Source: Candidatus Woesearchaeota archaeon (GTDB taxonomy: Archaea > Nanobdellota > Nanobdellia > SCGC-AAA011-G17 > JACPIM01). From it: 64,000 nt of DNA. The stretch's first letter is position 1. Every line of letters begins with the position of its first letter. The position numbers were made by a program, and so were the translations under genes. The stretch is taken from positions 749 through 64,748 of the forward strand of contig CAZRVI010000001.1 of assembly GCA_964603525.1 (NCBI GenBank). Reading direction: 5' to 3'. A model generated the notes under the pieces. It had not been told where the DNA came from and did not search any database. It saw only the letters and a list, made by a program, of their open reading frames with translations. Positions 3,555 to 7,941 of this stretch are shown here, in pieces.

Positions 3555-4400
3555 TTAGAATTTCAGTTTATTTAATCTAGAAATCCTGTCTCTTACTGTT
3601 GGATGGGTAGAAAAAAGAGTAAGTAAAGTTTTTCCTGAAAATGGATTGACAATCATCATGTGACTTGTAATTTCTGTTTGAGAAGTTTTCTTTAGTGGCA
3701 TAATTCTTGCTGCTGATTCTAGTTTTAATAATGCATTTGCTAGTGGTGAAGATTTTCTAATAAATCTTGCTCCGGATTCATCTGCAAGATATTCTCTACT
3801 ACGGGAGATTGCTAATCTTATAATTAAAGCAATTATGGGTGCTAAGATTGCTAAAAATAGTAATTCTAAACCAGAATTTCTTTCTGATCTCCCTCCACCG
3901 AAAATAGCTGCAAATCTTGCCATCATTGCTACATAAGAAATTATACCTGCAATTGTTGCTGCTACTGTTGCTATTAGAATATCTTTGTTTTTAATATGAG
4001 CTATTTCGTGTGCAAGAACGCCTTTTAATTCTTCTTTTGTTAATAATTTTAAAATTCCTTGAGTAACTGCTACTGCAGCATGTTTAGAATTTCTTCCAGT
4101 AGCCAAAGCATTTGGATGTTGGGTTGGAATTATATAAACTTTTGGTTTTGGAATCTTTGCTTTTTTACATATATCCTCAATTATATTATGTAACTCTGGA
4201 GCTTGAGATTTTGAAACTTCTTTAGCTCTGTAGATTGTTAGGATAATTTTATCTGAATAAAAGTAAGTAAAAAAATTCATTAATATTACAAAAATTAAAG
4301 CAATAGTTAATCCTGTATAAGACCAAAATGAACCTATTAGAAGTAATAAAGCTGTTAATATACCCAATAATAATACAGTTTTAATTTGATTTAAAATCAT
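3555..4400 (-). CDS. htpX: HtpX-like M48 membrane zinc metalloprotease
   Basis: Has N-terminal TM helices and an HEIAH zinc motif followed by further TM segments. Confidence 0.85.
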   Translation of the reverse strand: MILNQIKTVLLLGILTALLLLIGSFWSYTGLTIALIFVILMNFFTYFYSDKIILTIYRAKEVSKSQAPELHNIIEDICKKAKIPKPKVYIIPTQHPNALATGRNSKHAAVAVTQGILKLLTKEELKGVLAHEIAHIKNKDILIATVAATIAGIISYVAMMARFAAIFGGGRSERNSGLELLFLAILAPIIALIIRLAISRSREYLADESGARFIRKSSPLANALLKLESAARIMPLKKTSQTEITSHMMIVNPFSGKTLLTLFSTHPTVRDRISRLNKLKF

Positions 4401-4435
4401 GAGCTGTAGTAAAATTTATATTCTTTAAAAAGTTT

Positions 4436-6193
4436 TTGATTTGTATGCCTTATGATATTATAATTGGAAGGGATGAAGAAGACAGAAAAAAATTTGGTGA
4501 AAGAGGTGCAGTTTTTATTGGTAGAAGTTATGTTAAAATGGGGCAAGTTACTAGTTTAGCTAATAATGTTTTTTTAGATATGGTAAGACCACATGTTATT
4601 TTATTATCTGGGAAGAGAGGTTGTTTAACAGGAGATACTTTAATTTTAACAGATAAAGGCTACAAACAAATAAAAAAATTTAATGAAAAGGAGGATAAAG
4701 TTTTATCATTTAATAAGGCATCAAAGAAATTTGAATGGGAAACTGCAAAATTTCTTGAATACCCAATTTATAATGAAAGTTTATTAAAAATAAAGTTTGA
4801 AAATGATAAAGAAATAAAACTTACAAAAGAACATCCTTTATTGGCTGTTACAGGTGAGAAATTATTGTCTTTACTATGGTTAGAAGCAAATAAATTAAAA
4901 GTAGGGGATAGTATTCTTTCAATTGGAAAATCACTTGAAGATTTAATACCTCTTAAAATAAAAGAAGTATTAGAAATAAGAGGAATAAAAAAGGTTTATG
5001 ATTTAAGAGTTTCTAAGAATAACTCATTTATAGCAAATGGAATAATATCACATAATTCTGGAAAAAGTTACTCAATTTCTGTTATTGCTGAAAGTATTGC
5101 AGAACTACCAAAAGAGATTTCCGAGAATTTATCAGTAATAATTTTTGACACAATGGGAATTTTTTGGACTATGAAATTTCCTAACAAAAGACAAGAAAAA
5201 TTATTAAATAAATGGAATCTTGGGTCAAAAGGATTTGATGTTAGCATATTTACTCCTTCTGGTTTTTATGAGCTATATAAAAGCAAAGGAATTCCTACAG
5301 ATTATAAATTTGAGATTAAAACTTCTGAATTAAGTTCTGGGGATTGGTGTGATGTTTTAAATGTTAATATAATAGAACCTGTTGGTTTATTAATTTCTAG
5401 AGCAGTTGAGAAATTAAAAGGTAATTATTCTATACAAGATATTATAGAAGAGATTAAAAAAGATAAAAAATCTGAACAGAAGGTGAAAGATGCAGCAGAA
5501 AGTATGTTTTTAACTGTTAATAAATGGGGTTTGTTTAGCAAGAAAGGGACAGAGATTAAGGATCTAATAAAACCAAGCAAGGTTTCCATAATAGATGTTA
5601 GTTGTTATACAGAAGTTGGTGGTGGATGGAGTATTAAAGCACTTGTTATAGGATTAATATGTAGAAAACTATTAAGAGAAAGAATTAGTGTTAGAAAGAT
5701 GGAGGAATATAATGAGATAAGATATGGTACTAAATTAACAGGTGATAAAAGAAAAAAGGAGTTACCACAAGTTTGGATTTGTATTGACGAGGCTCATAAA
5801 GTGCTTTCTAAATATGAAAAAACACCAGCTACATATGACTTAATAAGATTATTAAGAGAGGGAAGACAGCCAGGGATTTCATTAGTTTTGGCTACACAAC
5901 AACCAGGTGTTGTACATAATGATGTTTTGACACAAAGTGATATTGTTATTAGCCACAGAGTTACTGCTAAACCAGATATTGATGCCTTGAATAGTATAAT
6001 GCAGACATATTTAATTAAAGATTTGCAGACATACCTCAACAATTTACCAAAACTAAAAGGTTCTGCAATAATATTGGATGATAATTCTGAAAGAATTTAT
6101 CCTATGAGAGTTAGACCAAAGAAAAGTTGGCATGGTGGTGAGGCTCCAAGTGCTATTAAGATAAGTAAAAAGGAAGAGATTGAAAAGCTATAA
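4436..6193 (+). CDS. HerA/FtsK-superfamily P-loop ATPase (DUF87-like), interrupted by a mini-intein
   Basis: The Walker A is split as LLSGKRG | intein | SGKSYS. There is also a Walker B ICIDEAHKV. The extein is about 440 aa. Confidence 0.65.
   Translation: MICMPYDIIIGRDEEDRKKFGERGAVFIGRSYVKMGQVTSLANNVFLDMVRPHVILLSGKRGCLTGDTLILTDKGYKQIKKFNEKEDKVLSFNKASKKFEWETAKFLEYPIYNESLLKIKFENDKEIKLTKEHPLLAVTGEKLLSLLWLEANKLKVGDSILSIGKSLEDLIPLKIKEVLEIRGIKKVYDLRVSKNNSFIANGIISHNSGKSYSISVIAESIAELPKEISENLSVIIFDTMGIFWTMKFPNKRQEKLLNKWNLGSKGFDVSIFTPSGFYELYKSKGIPTDYKFEIKTSELSSGDWCDVLNVNIIEPVGLLISRAVEKLKGNYSIQDIIEEIKKDKKSEQKVKDAAESMFLTVNKWGLFSKKGTEIKDLIKPSKVSIIDVSCYTEVGGGWSIKALVIGLICRKLLRERISVRKMEEYNEIRYGTKLTGDKRKKELPQVWICIDEAHKVLSKYEKTPATYDLIRLLREGRQPGISLVLATQQPGVVHNDVLTQSDIVISHRVTAKPDIDALNSIMQTYLIKDLQTYLNNLPKLKGSAIILDDNSERIYPMRVRPKKSWHGGEAPSAIKISKKEEIEKL
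4622..5056 (+). mobile_element. Mini-intein (Hint domain only, no homing endonuclease), 145 aa, inserted in the P-loop
   Basis: It begins with the Cys of CLTGDTLIL (block A), ends with ...GIISHN, and the +1 residue is Ser. Removing it restores GKRG-SGKS. Confidence 0.75.
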
Positions 6194-6937
6194 CTTAATA
6201 TCTATACAAATTCTATAAACTCCTGGAGAATAAGCACCACACTTTGTTATATTTTTGATTTGAAATTTTTTGATATGTTTTTTAATTATATTTTTGATAT
6301 GTTTTTTATTTATTTCCTCTTTTTTAAGAAAAATATAGAGATGGATAATACCATTTTTTTTAATTTTCTTTTTAATTATATCAAGATATAGTTTAGAAGA
6401 TTTTGGTAAAGGCATGATTATTCTGTCAAATTTTTTTCTAATTTTTGGAAGTATTTTCTTAACATCACCTTTAATGTTTTTGATATTAATTAATTTGTTT
6501 AGTTTTACATTTTCTTCTGCATACTTATGAGCTATAGGGTTAATTTCTATTCCATAAATTTCTTTTGCTTTTGTATTCTTAGCAATTGTCAAGCCATAAG
6601 GTTGAACACCTGAAAAAGCAACTAAAATAGATTCTCCTTTTTTAATTTGTTTAAAGATTCTTTTTCTTTCTTCTGATAGTCTTTGAGAAAAATAACATTT
6701 TGAAACATCTAATTTTATTAGTACATTATTTTCTTTATGTATTGTTTCTGTTCTTTTTTCTCCTGCAAGATACTTTAATTTTCTTATTCTATATTTTCCA
6801 CTAAAAATTCCTGCTCTTTTATATATAGATTTGATATGTTTATGTTTCTTTAATAATATCTGGGCTTGTTTTTTTGTTCCTTTTTCATTTAAAATTGCTA
6901 TACTGCCAATAACATCATAAGAACTTATTTTATCCAT
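6188..6937 (-). CDS. Trm5/Taw2-family (Met-10+ like) tRNA methyltransferase
   Basis: Has the YDVIGSIAIL motif and a class I SAM-MTase core (VAFSGV...). The C-terminus is lysine-rich and repetitive. Confidence 0.55.
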   Translation of the reverse strand: MDKISSYDVIGSIAILNEKGTKKQAQILLKKHKHIKSIYKRAGIFSGKYRIRKLKYLAGEKRTETIHKENNVLIKLDVSKCYFSQRLSEERKRIFKQIKKGESILVAFSGVQPYGLTIAKNTKAKEIYGIEINPIAHKYAEENVKLNKLINIKNIKGDVKKILPKIRKKFDRIIMPLPKSSKLYLDIIKKKIKKNGIIHLYIFLKKEEINKKHIKNIIKKHIKKFQIKNITKCGAYSPGVYRICIDIKL

Positions 6938-7941
6938 TTTGTTAACCCTGTTTGGGATCTTATTTCTTTTGTTTTTTCTAGTTGCTCTAGTCTGCTATCT
7001 ATTCTTTCTTCTGAAAAATCATGTTTTTTAACAAGAATTTTTTTAATCATTTTTTTATCTGGTTCTTTCCATTTTAACTTATAATTTTTCATTATTGGCA
7101 TTGATTTATATACTGCATAAATTCTTTTCCAATTGAATTCTGCTTTTACTTTTTTAAATAAAGTATCAAAATTTTTGTATTGTTTGACTAGTCTTAAGGC
7201 TGTTTTTGGACCTATTCCTTTTATTCCTTCATTATAATCTGTTCCAACCAATATAGCTAAAGCAATTAACTGGTCTTGTTTTATTTTAAGATGTTTTAAT
7301 ACTTTTTTTAGCTCTATTAATTCTGGTGTGATTTTTATATAAGCCCCTGATGGAAGTTTTTTTCTTTGTGATAACGTTAGATTTGTTAATAATTTTGGTG
7401 CACCAAATAATAGACAATCAAAATCTGAAGACGCCGTAAAATCCACATGTTTTCTTTCGCACATAAATGCTATTTGCGCATCTGCTTCTGATGGTGCTTG
7501 AATTACTGGAATTCCTAATGCCTTAATTAAATCTTTTGCTTCATCAGACATTTTAAAAGACAATCTAGATGTTTGTTTTGCATATTTTGCCATTTCTTTT
7601 ATATCTTTTTTCTTTTTTGCTTGTTTTAATTTTTTTTCTGCTAATTGTTTTCTATGTTCCCTTTGTTCTTTTGTTTTTATCTTAAGAGAAGGGGGTTTTC
7701 CATCAAAACAAACTACTAATTTAACATTGTTTTTTAATAAACTTGTCAATCTATAAAACGAGCCTACTAAATGTGAAGTTATATTTCCTTTTTTGTCTTG
7801 TAATGGAGTTCCATCTGGTTGCCTAATTGATGCAATAAACTGATATAACATATTTGAAGCATCTACTGCTACTTTTTTGTTTATTAGCTGATCAAAAGAA
7901 ATTTCTTGTTTTGGTATAATTTTTGTTAAGTTAACACCCAT
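6925..7941 (-). CDS. fen: Flap endonuclease 1
   Basis: Has the XPG-N and XPG-I domains (VAVDASN...QAPSEADAQIA), an H3TH segment and a C-terminal PIP-like tail. Confidence 0.9.
   Translation of the reverse strand: MGVNLTKIIPKQEISFDQLINKKVAVDASNMLYQFIASIRQPDGTPLQDKKGNITSHLVGSFYRLTSLLKNNVKLVVCFDGKPPSLKIKTKEQREHRKQLAEKKLKQAKKKKDIKEMAKYAKQTSRLSFKMSDEAKDLIKALGIPVIQAPSEADAQIAFMCERKHVDFTASSDFDCLLFGAPKLLTNLTLSQRKKLPSGAYIKITPELIELKKVLKHLKIKQDQLIALAILVGTDYNEGIKGIGPKTALRLVKQYKNFDTLFKKVKAEFNWKRIYAVYKSMPIMKNYKLKWKEPDKKMIKKILVKKHDFSEERIDSRLEQLEKTKEIRSQTGLTKWIK

What the first reader, a model, noticed from the sequence alone, without database searches (positions are those of the whole stretch)
4622..5056. 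Mini-intein inserted in the P-loop of a HerA/FtsK-like ATPase
The Walker A motif is literally split: ...LLSGKRG | CLTGDTLIL ... NGIISHN | SGKSYS. The insert starts with Cys, ends with His-Asn, and the next residue is Ser. It is about 145 aa, with no room for a homing endonuclease. Excising it restores a canonical GxxGSGKS P-loop. Insertion at the most conserved site of an ATPase is typical for inteins. PolB, PolD, MCM, RFC and Cdc48 in this window are intein-free, so this host protein is a notable exception.
Basis: seen in the sequence. Interest (0 to 1): 0.6.

Follow-up and report, generated by a model that had tools for sequence, protein, structure and literature searches.

The report
Mini-intein splitting a HerA-like ATPase P-loop
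A 145-residue self-splicing protein element (a mini-intein without a homing endonuclease) interrupts the ATP-binding loop of a HerA-like ATPase in a small DPANN archaeon; it is a real but ordinary intein, and dozens of related archaea carry the same one at the same site.

Summary
Window 4622-5056 (+) encodes a 145-aa insert, Cys1 to His-Asn, followed by Ser. It lies between GKRG and SGKS of the Walker A motif of a 582-aa ORF (ATG 4445, stop 6191-6193).

The insert passes the curated cut-offs of Pfam Intein_splicing and of the TIGRFAM intein N- and C-terminal models. It models with pLDDT 93.9 and superposes on solved mini-inteins (TM 0.80-0.85).

Removing it gives a 437-aa protein. That protein is collinear with thousands of intein-free orthologues (57-81% identity) from Woese-, Pace- and Nanoarchaeota, including one in the same gene neighbourhood.

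The intein is not unique. At least 69 proteins from these lineages carry a homologous intein at the same site, and a few of these still hold a LAGLIDADG endonuclease. The family also has two further intein sites: one 3 residues downstream in the P-loop, and one in Walker B.

The window's copy sits in an extein whose nearest relatives lack this intein, which suggests lateral acquisition.

One deviation: a block-F His kept in 67 of 69 relatives is Asn here.

Verdict: a new member of a known kind, low to moderate interest. Splicing itself is inferred, not shown.

The parts
4445..6193 (+). Precursor gene: HerA-like (DUF87) ATPase carrying one intein; 582 codons plus stop
   Evidence: ORF. The ATG at 4445 is chosen because all homologues begin MPY/MAY...IIxGR. 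Identical to database protein P0001.
4415..4422 (+). Possible archaeal TATA box (TTTATATT), 23-30 nt upstream of the ATG; inferred only
   Evidence: Read directly from the sequence. No promoter tool for archaea was available.
4445..4621 (+). N-extein (59 aa), ending in the first half of Walker A, GKRG (4610-4621)
   Evidence: Aligns to residues 1-59 of intein-free homologues.
4622..5056 (+). Class-1-type mini-intein, 145 aa, no homing endonuclease
   Evidence: Pfam PF14890 57.2 bits, TIGR01445 54 bits, TIGR01443 31.4 bits. PDB phmmer best hit is the Spl DnaX mini-intein, 4.5e-13. AF2 pLDDT 93.9; Foldseek TM 0.80-0.85 to solved inteins.
4622..4651 (+). Block A, CLTGDTLILT, with the nucleophile Cys1 (TGT 4622-4624)
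   Evidence: Cys1 is invariant in all 69 inteins at this site.
4805..4843 (+). Block B, DKEIKLTKEHPLL, with Thr68 (4823-4825) and His71 (4832-4834): the TxxH motif
   Evidence: T68, E70, H71, P72, L73 and L74 are invariant in alignments A4/A6.
4991..5038 (+). Block F, KVYDLRVSKNNSFIAN, with Asp127 (5000-5002). Asn134 (AAC 5021-5023) stands where 67 of 69 relatives have His
   Evidence: N134 aligns with the conserved His of the Spl DnaX and Pho CDC21 inteins.
5039..5059 (+). Block G, GIISHN, plus the +1 Ser nucleophile (TCT 5057-5059)
   Evidence: Of 69 site-a inteins, 68 end in HN and all 69 are followed by Ser.
5057..6190 (+). C-extein (378 aa). It starts with the second half of Walker A, SGKS (5057-5068), and contains Walker B, VWICIDEAH (5771-5797)
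   Evidence: Pfam DUF87 and HerA_C regions. Foldseek best matches are HerA 4d2i and 9x1m.

Best explanation
The gene at 4445-6193 encodes a precursor of a HerA-like hexameric-type P-loop ATPase of a Woese/Nanoarchaeota-type (DPANN) archaeon. A 145-aa class-1 mini-intein interrupts its Walker A loop between Gly59 and Ser (GKRG|intein|SGKS).

Inferred mechanism, the standard four-step class-1 pathway:
- Cys1 makes an N-S acyl shift at the GKRG-Cys bond, assisted by Thr68 and His71 of block B.
- Ser+1 attacks the thioester and forms the branched intermediate, with Asp127 of block F assisting.
- Asn145 cyclises, assisted by His144, and releases the intein.
- An O-N shift leaves the peptide bond Gly-Ser.

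The product is a 437-aa ATPase with an intact GKRGSGKS P-loop. Until splicing occurs the protein should be unable to bind ATP.

The element has no homing endonuclease. It belongs to a lineage of inteins specific to this site, some of which still carry a LAGLIDADG endonuclease. It is therefore a derivative that has lost the endonuclease, is now inherited mostly vertically, and is probably moved occasionally by recombination.

What is shown: the anatomy, family membership, the fold model, intein-free orthologues, and the distribution of relatives. What is inferred: that it splices, and how it entered this lineage.
For: Curated intein models are passed.

Catalytic residues C1, T68, H71, D127, H144, N145 and S+1 are all present. 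They are conserved across 69 inteins at the same site.

The AF2 model has pLDDT 93.9 and superposes on PhoCDC21-1, Ssp/Npu DnaB, Spl DnaX and Mtu RecA inteins at TM 0.80-0.85.

The spliced product is collinear with more than 6000 homologues of 430-445 aa that have an uninterrupted GKRGxGKS. All of the best 80 loci from species-representative genomes lack an insert. The orthologous locus L083 has the same neighbours (M48 peptidase, TRM5/TYW2, FEN-1) and no intein.

The +1 residue is Ser in 69 of 69 carriers, but only in 137 of 184 intein-free proteins. This is the pattern expected if splicing is under selection.

Across carriers the intein is as conserved as the extein (mean 61% identity for both), which indicates purifying selection on the intein.

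Relatives at the same site with a LAGLIDADG_3 domain (P0126, P0176, P0181; 369-372 aa) align with the mini form at both ends.
Against: No experiment or proteomic evidence shows splicing.

The conserved block-F His (present in 67 of 69 relatives) is Asn134 here. This residue is described as an assisting residue that is 'most commonly His' (PMC4031507). C-terminal cleavage could therefore be slowed in this particular allele.

Two related sequences have in-frame stops inside their inteins (L002 TAA, L001 TGA). Some alleles in this family may therefore be decaying, or the assemblies may contain errors.

The sequence comes from a metagenome assembly.
Confidence: 0.85

Rival explanations
1. The intein is real but impaired or decaying in this genome. 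The block-F His to Asn change, or other changes, slow or block splicing, so the gene is on its way to being a pseudogene or yields little active ATPase.
For: Asn134 replaces a His kept in 67 of 69 relatives. The related loci L002 and L001 carry in-frame stop codons inside their inteins. The window's extein lineage is otherwise free of the site-a intein, so an intein newly arrived in a foreign extein context could be poorly adapted.
Against: The reading frame is intact over all 582 codons. All primary nucleophiles and the block B, block G and F-Asp residues are present. The extein is highly conserved and shows no sign of decay (99-100% to P0001, 81-86% to its nearest relatives). The review read lists this block-F position among the 'less conserved' assisting positions (PMC4031507). 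One HEN-bearing relative (P0126) has Ser there.
Confidence: 0.1
2. The intein acts as a conditional splicing switch. It keeps the ATPase inactive until a signal (redox state of Cys1, temperature, substrate DNA) allows splicing, as reported for the P-loop intein of Pyrococcus horikoshii RadA. That would be a benefit explaining its long retention without an endonuclease.
For: The position in the P-loop makes activity strictly dependent on splicing. The HEN-less form persists in at least 66 protein clusters at 53-72% identity to the window's intein, with mean pairwise identity equal to the extein's at 61%. Conditional splicing of P-loop inteins is documented for RadA (PMC4513877 and PMC5790916, listed).
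Against: Purifying selection on a mini-intein is fully explained by the need to splice out of an important protein. Most family members, including the nearest relatives, do without the intein. There is only one Cys in the intein and none nearby in the exteins that could form a redox trap (sequence). No data bear on regulation.
Confidence: 0.08
3. The insert is a native, non-splicing Hint-like or bacterial-intein-like (BIL) domain of the ATPase rather than a mobile intein.
For: Weak sub-threshold matches to Pfam Hint and PT-HINT. BIL2 and Hedgehog Hint domains appear among the structural matches.
Against: The insert sits inside the Walker A loop, which cannot function when interrupted. Intein-free orthologues are the large majority, including one at the same locus. 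The intein-specific N- and C-terminal models are passed, with terminal HN plus Ser+1. Relatives at the same site carry a homing endonuclease.
Confidence: 0.02

Closest known systems
Solved class-1 mini-inteins: Spl DnaX (7cfv), Ssp and Npu DnaB (1mi8, 4o1r), Pho/Pab CDC21-1 (6rpq, 6rpp)
   Same: Similar size (137-170 aa) and the same HINT fold (TM 0.80-0.85). Cys1, TxxH, VYDL...F(I/V)ANG and HN are shared. Ser +1, as I recall for Ssp DnaB (from memory, not checked here). No endonuclease. Sequence E-value 4.5e-13 to Spl DnaX.
   Different: Only 21-31% identical. The host protein and insertion site differ. The block-F His is Asn here.
P-loop inteins of other ATPases: Pho RadA, MCM site a, DnaB site b, RFC-S site a (Novikova et al. 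2016, PMC4760082)
   Same: Inserted in the Walker A loop of a ring-type ATPase acting on DNA, so ATP binding depends on splicing. This fits the documented clustering of inteins in ATPase P-loops.
   Different: The host is a HerA-like DUF87 protein, which is not named in that paper's main text (0 hits for HerA, FtsK or DUF87; its supplementary tables were not available). The exact junction is G|S, three residues upstream of the GK|S/T position used by the second intein site of this same family.
Site-a inteins of the same DUF87 family in other Nano/Pace/Woesearchaeota MAGs (e.g. P0274, P0277, P0280, P0311; HEN-bearing P0126, P0176, P0181)
   Same: Same insertion point GKRG|C...HN|SGKS, the same 139-157 aa architecture, and 53-72% identity to the window's intein. 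These are true orthologues of the element.
   Different: The window's extein does not belong to the main intein-bearing group: its nearest site-a extein is 62% identical, against 81% for an intein-free one. The window's copy has Asn134 in place of His. The HEN-bearing relatives are about 225 aa longer.
Neighbouring-intein systems such as haloarchaeal MCM sites a and d (PMC10643990)
   Same: Several intein sites lie close together in one ATPase domain. Here sites a and b are 3 codons apart, and site c is in Walker B.
   Different: Sites a and b never occur together in the proteins examined (0 of 88), whereas b+c do (P0130, P0135). No functional homing data exist for this family.
Archaeal HerA (Sulfolobus 4d2i, Thermococcus 9x1m): comparison for the host protein
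   Same: Pfam DUF87 and HerA_C regions, Walker A and B motifs, and best structural matches at E about 1e-15 and TM about 0.6.
   Different: 437 aa with only about 45 residues before the P-loop, and these model poorly (pLDDT below 50). It scores 51 bits against NCBIfam HerA cut-offs of 800-970. No NurA, Mre11 or Rad50 gene lies next to it.

Membership tests
Class 1 intein (HINT superfamily) | N-terminal nucleophile Cys or Ser at intein position 1 | tested here: met
   TGT at 4622-4624 encodes Cys1. Invariant in 69 relatives.
Class 1 intein (HINT superfamily) | Block B Thr-x-x-His (B:7, B:10) | tested here: met
   T68-K-E-H71. Invariant in A4/A6.
Class 1 intein (HINT superfamily) | Block F Asp (F:4) | tested here: met
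   D127 in VYDL.
Class 1 intein (HINT superfamily) | Block F His (assisting residue, 'most commonly His' per PMC4031507; not obligatory) | tested here: not met
   Asn134 (AAC 5021-5023). Of 69 site-a relatives, 67 have His. N134 aligns with the His of Spl DnaX and Pho CDC21.
Class 1 intein (HINT superfamily) | Block G penultimate His and C-terminal Asn | tested here: met
   H144-N145, CAT AAT at 5051-5056. TIGR01443 31.4 bits against a cut-off of 15.6.
Class 1 intein (HINT superfamily) | Cys, Ser or Thr as first C-extein residue | tested here: met
   Ser, TCT at 5057-5059. Ser in 69 of 69 carriers.
Class 1 intein (HINT superfamily) | Curated profile thresholds and HINT fold | tested here: met
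   PF14890 57.2 bits (cut-off 35.8) and TIGR01445 54 bits (cut-off 24.5). AF2 pLDDT 93.9 and Foldseek TM 0.80-0.85 to solved inteins.
Class 1 intein (HINT superfamily) | In-frame insertion in a conserved host protein, with intein-free homologues that are collinear after excision | tested here: met
   The syntenic intein-free locus is L083.
Class 1 intein (HINT superfamily) | Autocatalytic protein splicing demonstrated | not testable with these tools
   Needs expression with SDS-PAGE or mass spectrometry of precursor, ligated extein and free intein.
Mini-intein (no homing endonuclease) | Absence of a LAGLIDADG, HNH or other endonuclease domain between blocks B and F | tested here: met
   145 aa in total with no endonuclease hit in Pfam. 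The model is a single all-beta domain. Site-a relatives with PF14528 are 369-372 aa.
HerA/FtsK-clade ATPase (Pfam DUF87, PF01935) | Pfam gathering threshold for PF01935 | tested here: met
   The spliced extein scores 46.2 bits against a cut-off of 23.2; the precursor scores 37.4 bits.
HerA/FtsK-clade ATPase (Pfam DUF87, PF01935) | Walker A GxxGxGK[ST] and Walker B hhhhDE | tested here: met
   GKRGSGKS after excision, and VWICIDEAH at 5771-5797.
Canonical archaeal HerA (NurA-HerA end-resection helicase) | NCBIfam HerA equivalog score | tested here: not met
   Best is 51.1 bits against a cut-off of 800 (NF040937). NF040819 gives 34.8 bits against 970.
Canonical archaeal HerA (NurA-HerA end-resection helicase) | N-terminal HAS-barrel domain | tested here: inconclusive
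   Only about 45 residues precede the P-loop. AF2 pLDDT is below 50 for residues 1-41.
Canonical archaeal HerA (NurA-HerA end-resection helicase) | Operon with NurA, Mre11 or Rad50 | tested here: not met
   The neighbours are an M48 peptidase, TRM5/TYW2 and FEN-1, in the window and in L001 and L083.

The most novel reading that the evidence does not exclude
This short HerA-like ATPase of Nano/Woese/Pacearchaeota is an undescribed intein hot spot with three insertion points. Two lie 3 residues apart in the P-loop and appear mutually exclusive; the third is in Walker B. The endonuclease-free site-a mini-intein has been kept under purifying selection across many lineages, and still turns up in otherwise intein-free lineages such as this one. 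That would imply either transfer without its own endonuclease (recombination, or an endonuclease supplied in trans by full-length alleles) or a host benefit such as conditional activation of the ATPase.
Probability: 0.12. Interest if true: 0.5.

Novelty: new member of a known kind. Interest (0 to 1): 0.25.

Why it matters
For annotation: the gene should be read as a 437-aa ATPase plus an intein, not as a 582-aa 'DUF87 protein'.

For intein biology: it adds a HerA-like DPANN protein to the list of P-loop ATPases colonised by inteins. The family offers a natural series (empty site, mini-intein, endonuclease-bearing intein, and a competing intein 3 codons away) that could be used to study the homing cycle and interference between neighbouring inteins in uncultured archaea.

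A compact 145-aa Cys1/Ser+1 intein is in principle a candidate protein-engineering tool. None of this changes current understanding of inteins.

Tried and rejected
- **Close intein relatives, single-sequence search.** A word-indexed search with the intein alone found only 3. A profile of site-a inteins was needed to find the rest.

- **Viral vectors.** A scan of IMG/VR contigs with the intein profile gave only distant inteins (no more than 38% identity over most of the length). There is no evidence for a viral carrier.

- **Literature.** Searches for intein with HerA, DPANN or Nano/Pace/Woesearchaeota found no paper on this family. The supplementary tables of Novikova et al. were not available.

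- **Foreign-origin signal in base composition.** The intein has GC 0.239 against 0.306-0.311 for the exteins, but GC3 is similar (0.117 against 0.136-0.185). Not decisive.

- **DNA alignment across the junction.** MAFFT misplaced the intein-free allele. The protein alignment is the evidence used instead.

- **Alignment A5.** It was discarded and nothing rests on it.

- **First structure job.** It was repeated with A6.

- **Other inteins in the window.** None found.

- **Prevalence estimate.** The zero of 80 genome loci is biased, because split matches rank lower. It is therefore only a statement that intein-free alleles are common.
Full report
**Observation**

The + strand ORF that the ORF list starts at TTG 4436 and ends at 6193 most likely starts at the ATG at 4445, because every homologue begins MPY/MAY-x-II-x-GR. 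That gives 582 codons.

Reading the DNA:
- GGG AAG AGA GGT (GKRG) lies at 4610-4621.
- TGT (Cys) lies at 4622-4624.
- CAT AAT (His-Asn) lies at 5051-5056.
- TCT GGA AAA AGT (SGKS) lies at 5057-5068.

The 145-residue insert does split a Walker A motif into GKRG and SGKS.

**It is an intein**

The 145-aa segment alone passes three curated models:

| Model | Score (bits) | Cut-off (bits) |
|---|---|---|
| Pfam Intein_splicing | 57.2 | 35.8 |
| TIGR01445, intein N-terminal region | 54 | 24.5 |
| TIGR01443, intein C-terminal region | 31.4 | 15.6 |

Against the sequences of solved structures, the best matches are all inteins: the Spirulina DnaX mini-intein (7cfv, E = 4.5e-13), Mja KlbA, Pho CDC21-1, Ssp DnaB, Pho RadA and Tvo VMA.

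The catalytic and assisting residues listed for class 1 inteins in the review PMC4031507 are present:
- Cys1
- Thr68 and His71 (block B, LTKEH)
- Asp127 (block F, VYDL)
- His144 and Asn145 (block G)
- Ser+1

An AlphaFold2 model built on an alignment of eight same-site inteins has mean pLDDT 93.9 and is a single all-beta domain. Foldseek places it on PhoCDC21-1, Ssp/Npu DnaB, Spl DnaX, Pho RadA and Mtu RecA inteins, with TM 0.80-0.85 and probability 1.00.

There is no endonuclease domain in Pfam, and 145 aa leaves no room for one.

**Excision restores a normal host protein**

The conceptually spliced 437-aa product passes Pfam DUF87, 'Helicase HerA, central domain' (46.2 bits, cut-off 23.2).

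It finds more than 6000 homologues. The best 120 are nearly all 430-446 aa, 57-81% identical, from Woese-, Pace- and Nanoarchaeota MAGs. In the alignments they carry an uninterrupted GKRGxGKS exactly where the intein sits.

A scan of species-representative genomes found 576 loci. All of the best 80 have matches of about 1300 nt and therefore no insert. This sample is biased towards unsplit matches.

The nearest intein-free allele is P0002, at 81% identity. It lies in the same gene neighbourhood as the window: M48 peptidase upstream, TRM5/TYW2 methyltransferase and FEN-1 downstream (locus L083). It is therefore an orthologous empty site.

The refutation condition 'homologues carry the same insert as a native domain' is not met.

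**The host protein**

Sequence matches to solved structures are to HerA proteins, over the Walker B to C-terminal region.

The AF2 model of the spliced protein (pLDDT 75.9, with the N-terminal 41 residues unreliable) best matches Sulfolobus HerA 4d2i and Thermococcus HerA 9x1m, at E about 1e-15 and TM about 0.6.

It is not a canonical HerA:
- It reaches only 51 bits against NCBIfam HerA cut-offs of 800-970.
- It has only about 45 residues ahead of the P-loop.
- It is not next to NurA, Mre11 or Rad50.

'HerA-like DUF87 ATPase' is the accurate label. Its cellular role is unknown.

**The intein is one of a family, and the host is an intein hot spot**

An exhaustive HMMER search of cluster representatives with the precursor returned many over-long relatives. 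Mapping them onto an extein HMM and reading the junctions shows three insertion points:

| Site | Junction | Location | Found in |
|---|---|---|---|
| a | GKRG\|C...HN\|SGKS | P-loop | the window and its intein relatives |
| b | GxGK\|C...HN\|SY or SF | P-loop, 3 residues downstream of site a | 19 representatives, inteins of 160-619 aa |
| c | DE\|C...HN\|CHE | Walker B | 5 representatives, inteins of about 445 aa |

Some proteins carry sites b and c together (P0130 at 1308 aa, and P0135). Sites a and b never occur together among the 88 carriers examined. This would be expected if each intein destroys the other's target, by analogy with the neighbouring MCM inteins studied in PMC10643990.

A profile search with site-a inteins then found 95 proteins. 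In all, 69 proteins with a site-a intein were recovered:
- Nearly all are mini forms of 139-157 aa, inside 572-585-aa DUF87 proteins.
- They are 53-72% identical to the window's intein.
- All have Cys1, TxxH and Ser+1; 68 of 69 end in HN.

A few site-a inteins (P0126, P0176, P0181; 369-372 aa) carry a LAGLIDADG_3 domain. They align with the mini forms on both sides of a gap of about 225 aa. The mini-intein is therefore best read as an endonuclease-deleted derivative of a homing intein specific to this site. That is the usual later stage of the intein life cycle (general knowledge).

**History in this lineage**

Among 51 full-length carriers of the mini-intein, intein and extein identities are equal on average (61% for both). 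They are correlated at r = 0.42, and 0 of 2000 Mantel permutations reach that value. In addition, 51 of 54 site-a exteins have another site-a extein as nearest neighbour. Inheritance is therefore mainly vertical, within one part of the family.

The window is an exception:
- Among full-length exteins, its 12 nearest are all intein-free (P0002 at 81%).
- The closest relative overall is the partial P0003 at 86%. It has the same downstream neighbours on a contig that starts inside its intein, and carries a different, LAGLIDADG-bearing intein at site b.
- Its nearest site-a extein is only 62% identical, although that protein's intein is 72% identical.
- It ranks 3rd of 51 for 'intein more similar than extein' (+0.089, against a mean of 0.004 and SD of 0.042).

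This points to lateral entry of the mini-intein into the window's lineage, or to repeated loss in its relatives. It is suggestive rather than proven, because the comparison sets were chosen by similarity.

The three closest alleles show three different states: a mini-intein at site a, an endonuclease-bearing intein at site b, and an empty site.

In the empty allele P0002 the +1 position is Gly (GKRGGGKS), which could not support splicing of a site-a intein. Across intein-free proteins this position is Ser in 137 of 184, against 69 of 69 in carriers.

**Mechanism and caveats**

The inferred mechanism is the standard class-1 pathway, ending in a Gly-Ser peptide bond that recreates GKRGSGKS. Before splicing, the P-loop is interrupted and the ATPase should be inactive. 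Nothing here demonstrates splicing.

One residue deviates. Asn134 (AAC 5021-5023) stands where 67 of 69 relatives have His (...KNHSF...) and where the Spl DnaX and Pho CDC21 inteins have His. The review describes this block-F position as an assisting residue that is most commonly His but less conserved. The change may slow Asn cyclisation, or it may be neutral.

The same protein sequence occurs in an NCBI and an ENA assembly. I could not tell whether the two are independent.

**Rest of the window**

PolB, PolD DP2 and DP1, MCM, Cdc48, TopA, LonB, Topo VI-B and a class I aminoacyl-tRNA synthetase show no intein domain. tblastn and a six-frame HMM scan find only this intein: E = 1e-65, next best 0.09.

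**Comparison with what is known, and novelty**

Inteins in the P-loops of ATPases acting on DNA (DnaB, MCM, RFC, RadA and others) are well documented (PMC4760082). So are mini-inteins, and genes with several intein sites.

I found no paper on inteins in this DUF87/HerA-like family. The proteins are, however, already in public databases with a precomputed Pfam intein domain.

This is a new member of a known kind. It is correctly spotted, cleanly confirmed and biologically ordinary. A modest side interest is that the host family is a three-site intein hot spot in DPANN archaea. Interest: 0.25.

Noticed in passing
L002 1106-1108 (relative carrying the same site-a mini-intein; protein P0121): An in-frame TAA replaces the Ser codon of the block-G motif IISHN (ATA TAA CAT AAT, against ATA TCA CAT AAT in the window). 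The reading frame continues normally into the C-extein. This is a pseudogene, an assembly error or a population variant; which one is unresolved.
   Followed up: partly
L001 146-148 (relative with the site-b LAGLIDADG intein; protein P0003): An in-frame TGA lies inside the N-terminal splicing region of the intein (…KPVKE*TIGSRIAT…). As a result the gene was called from an internal Met. The contig starts inside the intein, so the P-loop and site a of this allele are not seen.
   Followed up: partly
window 5021-5023: Asn134 (AAC) stands at the conserved block-F histidine position, where 67 of 69 same-site inteins have His. It is one base away from a His codon. It might slow C-terminal cleavage.
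   Followed up: partly
L083 1200-2513 (protein P0002, 81% identical intein-free orthologue): The residue that would be +1 for a site-a intein is Gly (GKRGGGKS), and the following residues are unusually diverged (SWTMSCIAEEMANLP, against SYSISVIAESIAELP in the window). This may be an allele that cannot host the intein or be cut by the endonuclease.
   Followed up: no
protein P0122 (191 aa, partial): It has the same site-a mini-intein, but the N-extein is only 21 residues (MPYNIITGRDESDKKKFGKRG|C…) and appears to lack about 38 residues. This is a deletion or an assembly chimera.
   Followed up: no
window 3555-4400 (-), 6188-6937 (-), 6925-7941 (-): The neighbours of the ATPase gene are an M48/HtpX-type peptidase, a TRM5/TYW2-type methyltransferase and FEN-1. 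The order is conserved in L083, and the downstream pair is conserved in L001. The ATPase is transcribed alone on the opposite strand, so context gives no functional hint.
   Followed up: partly
proteins P0130 (1308 aa), P0135 (1071 aa), P0145 (1300 aa) from the representative search: Members of the same ATPase family appear to carry two inteins each: site b in the P-loop plus site c in Walker B (DE|C…HN|CHE, with Cys replacing the usual Ala of DEAHE as the +1 residue). Both inteins were fully delimited for P0130 and P0135. For P0145 the C-terminal boundary of the site-c intein was not resolved by the pattern used.
   Followed up: partly
window 1-64000: GC content is 25-34% throughout. GC skew is strongly positive where genes lie on the + strand and near zero or negative where they lie on the - strand (6-8 kb and 12-24 kb), i.e. 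G exceeds C on the coding strand. The window is dense in replication genes: two RFC-like ORFs, FEN-1, PolB, TopA, PolD DP1 and DP2, MCM and Topo VI-B.
   Followed up: no
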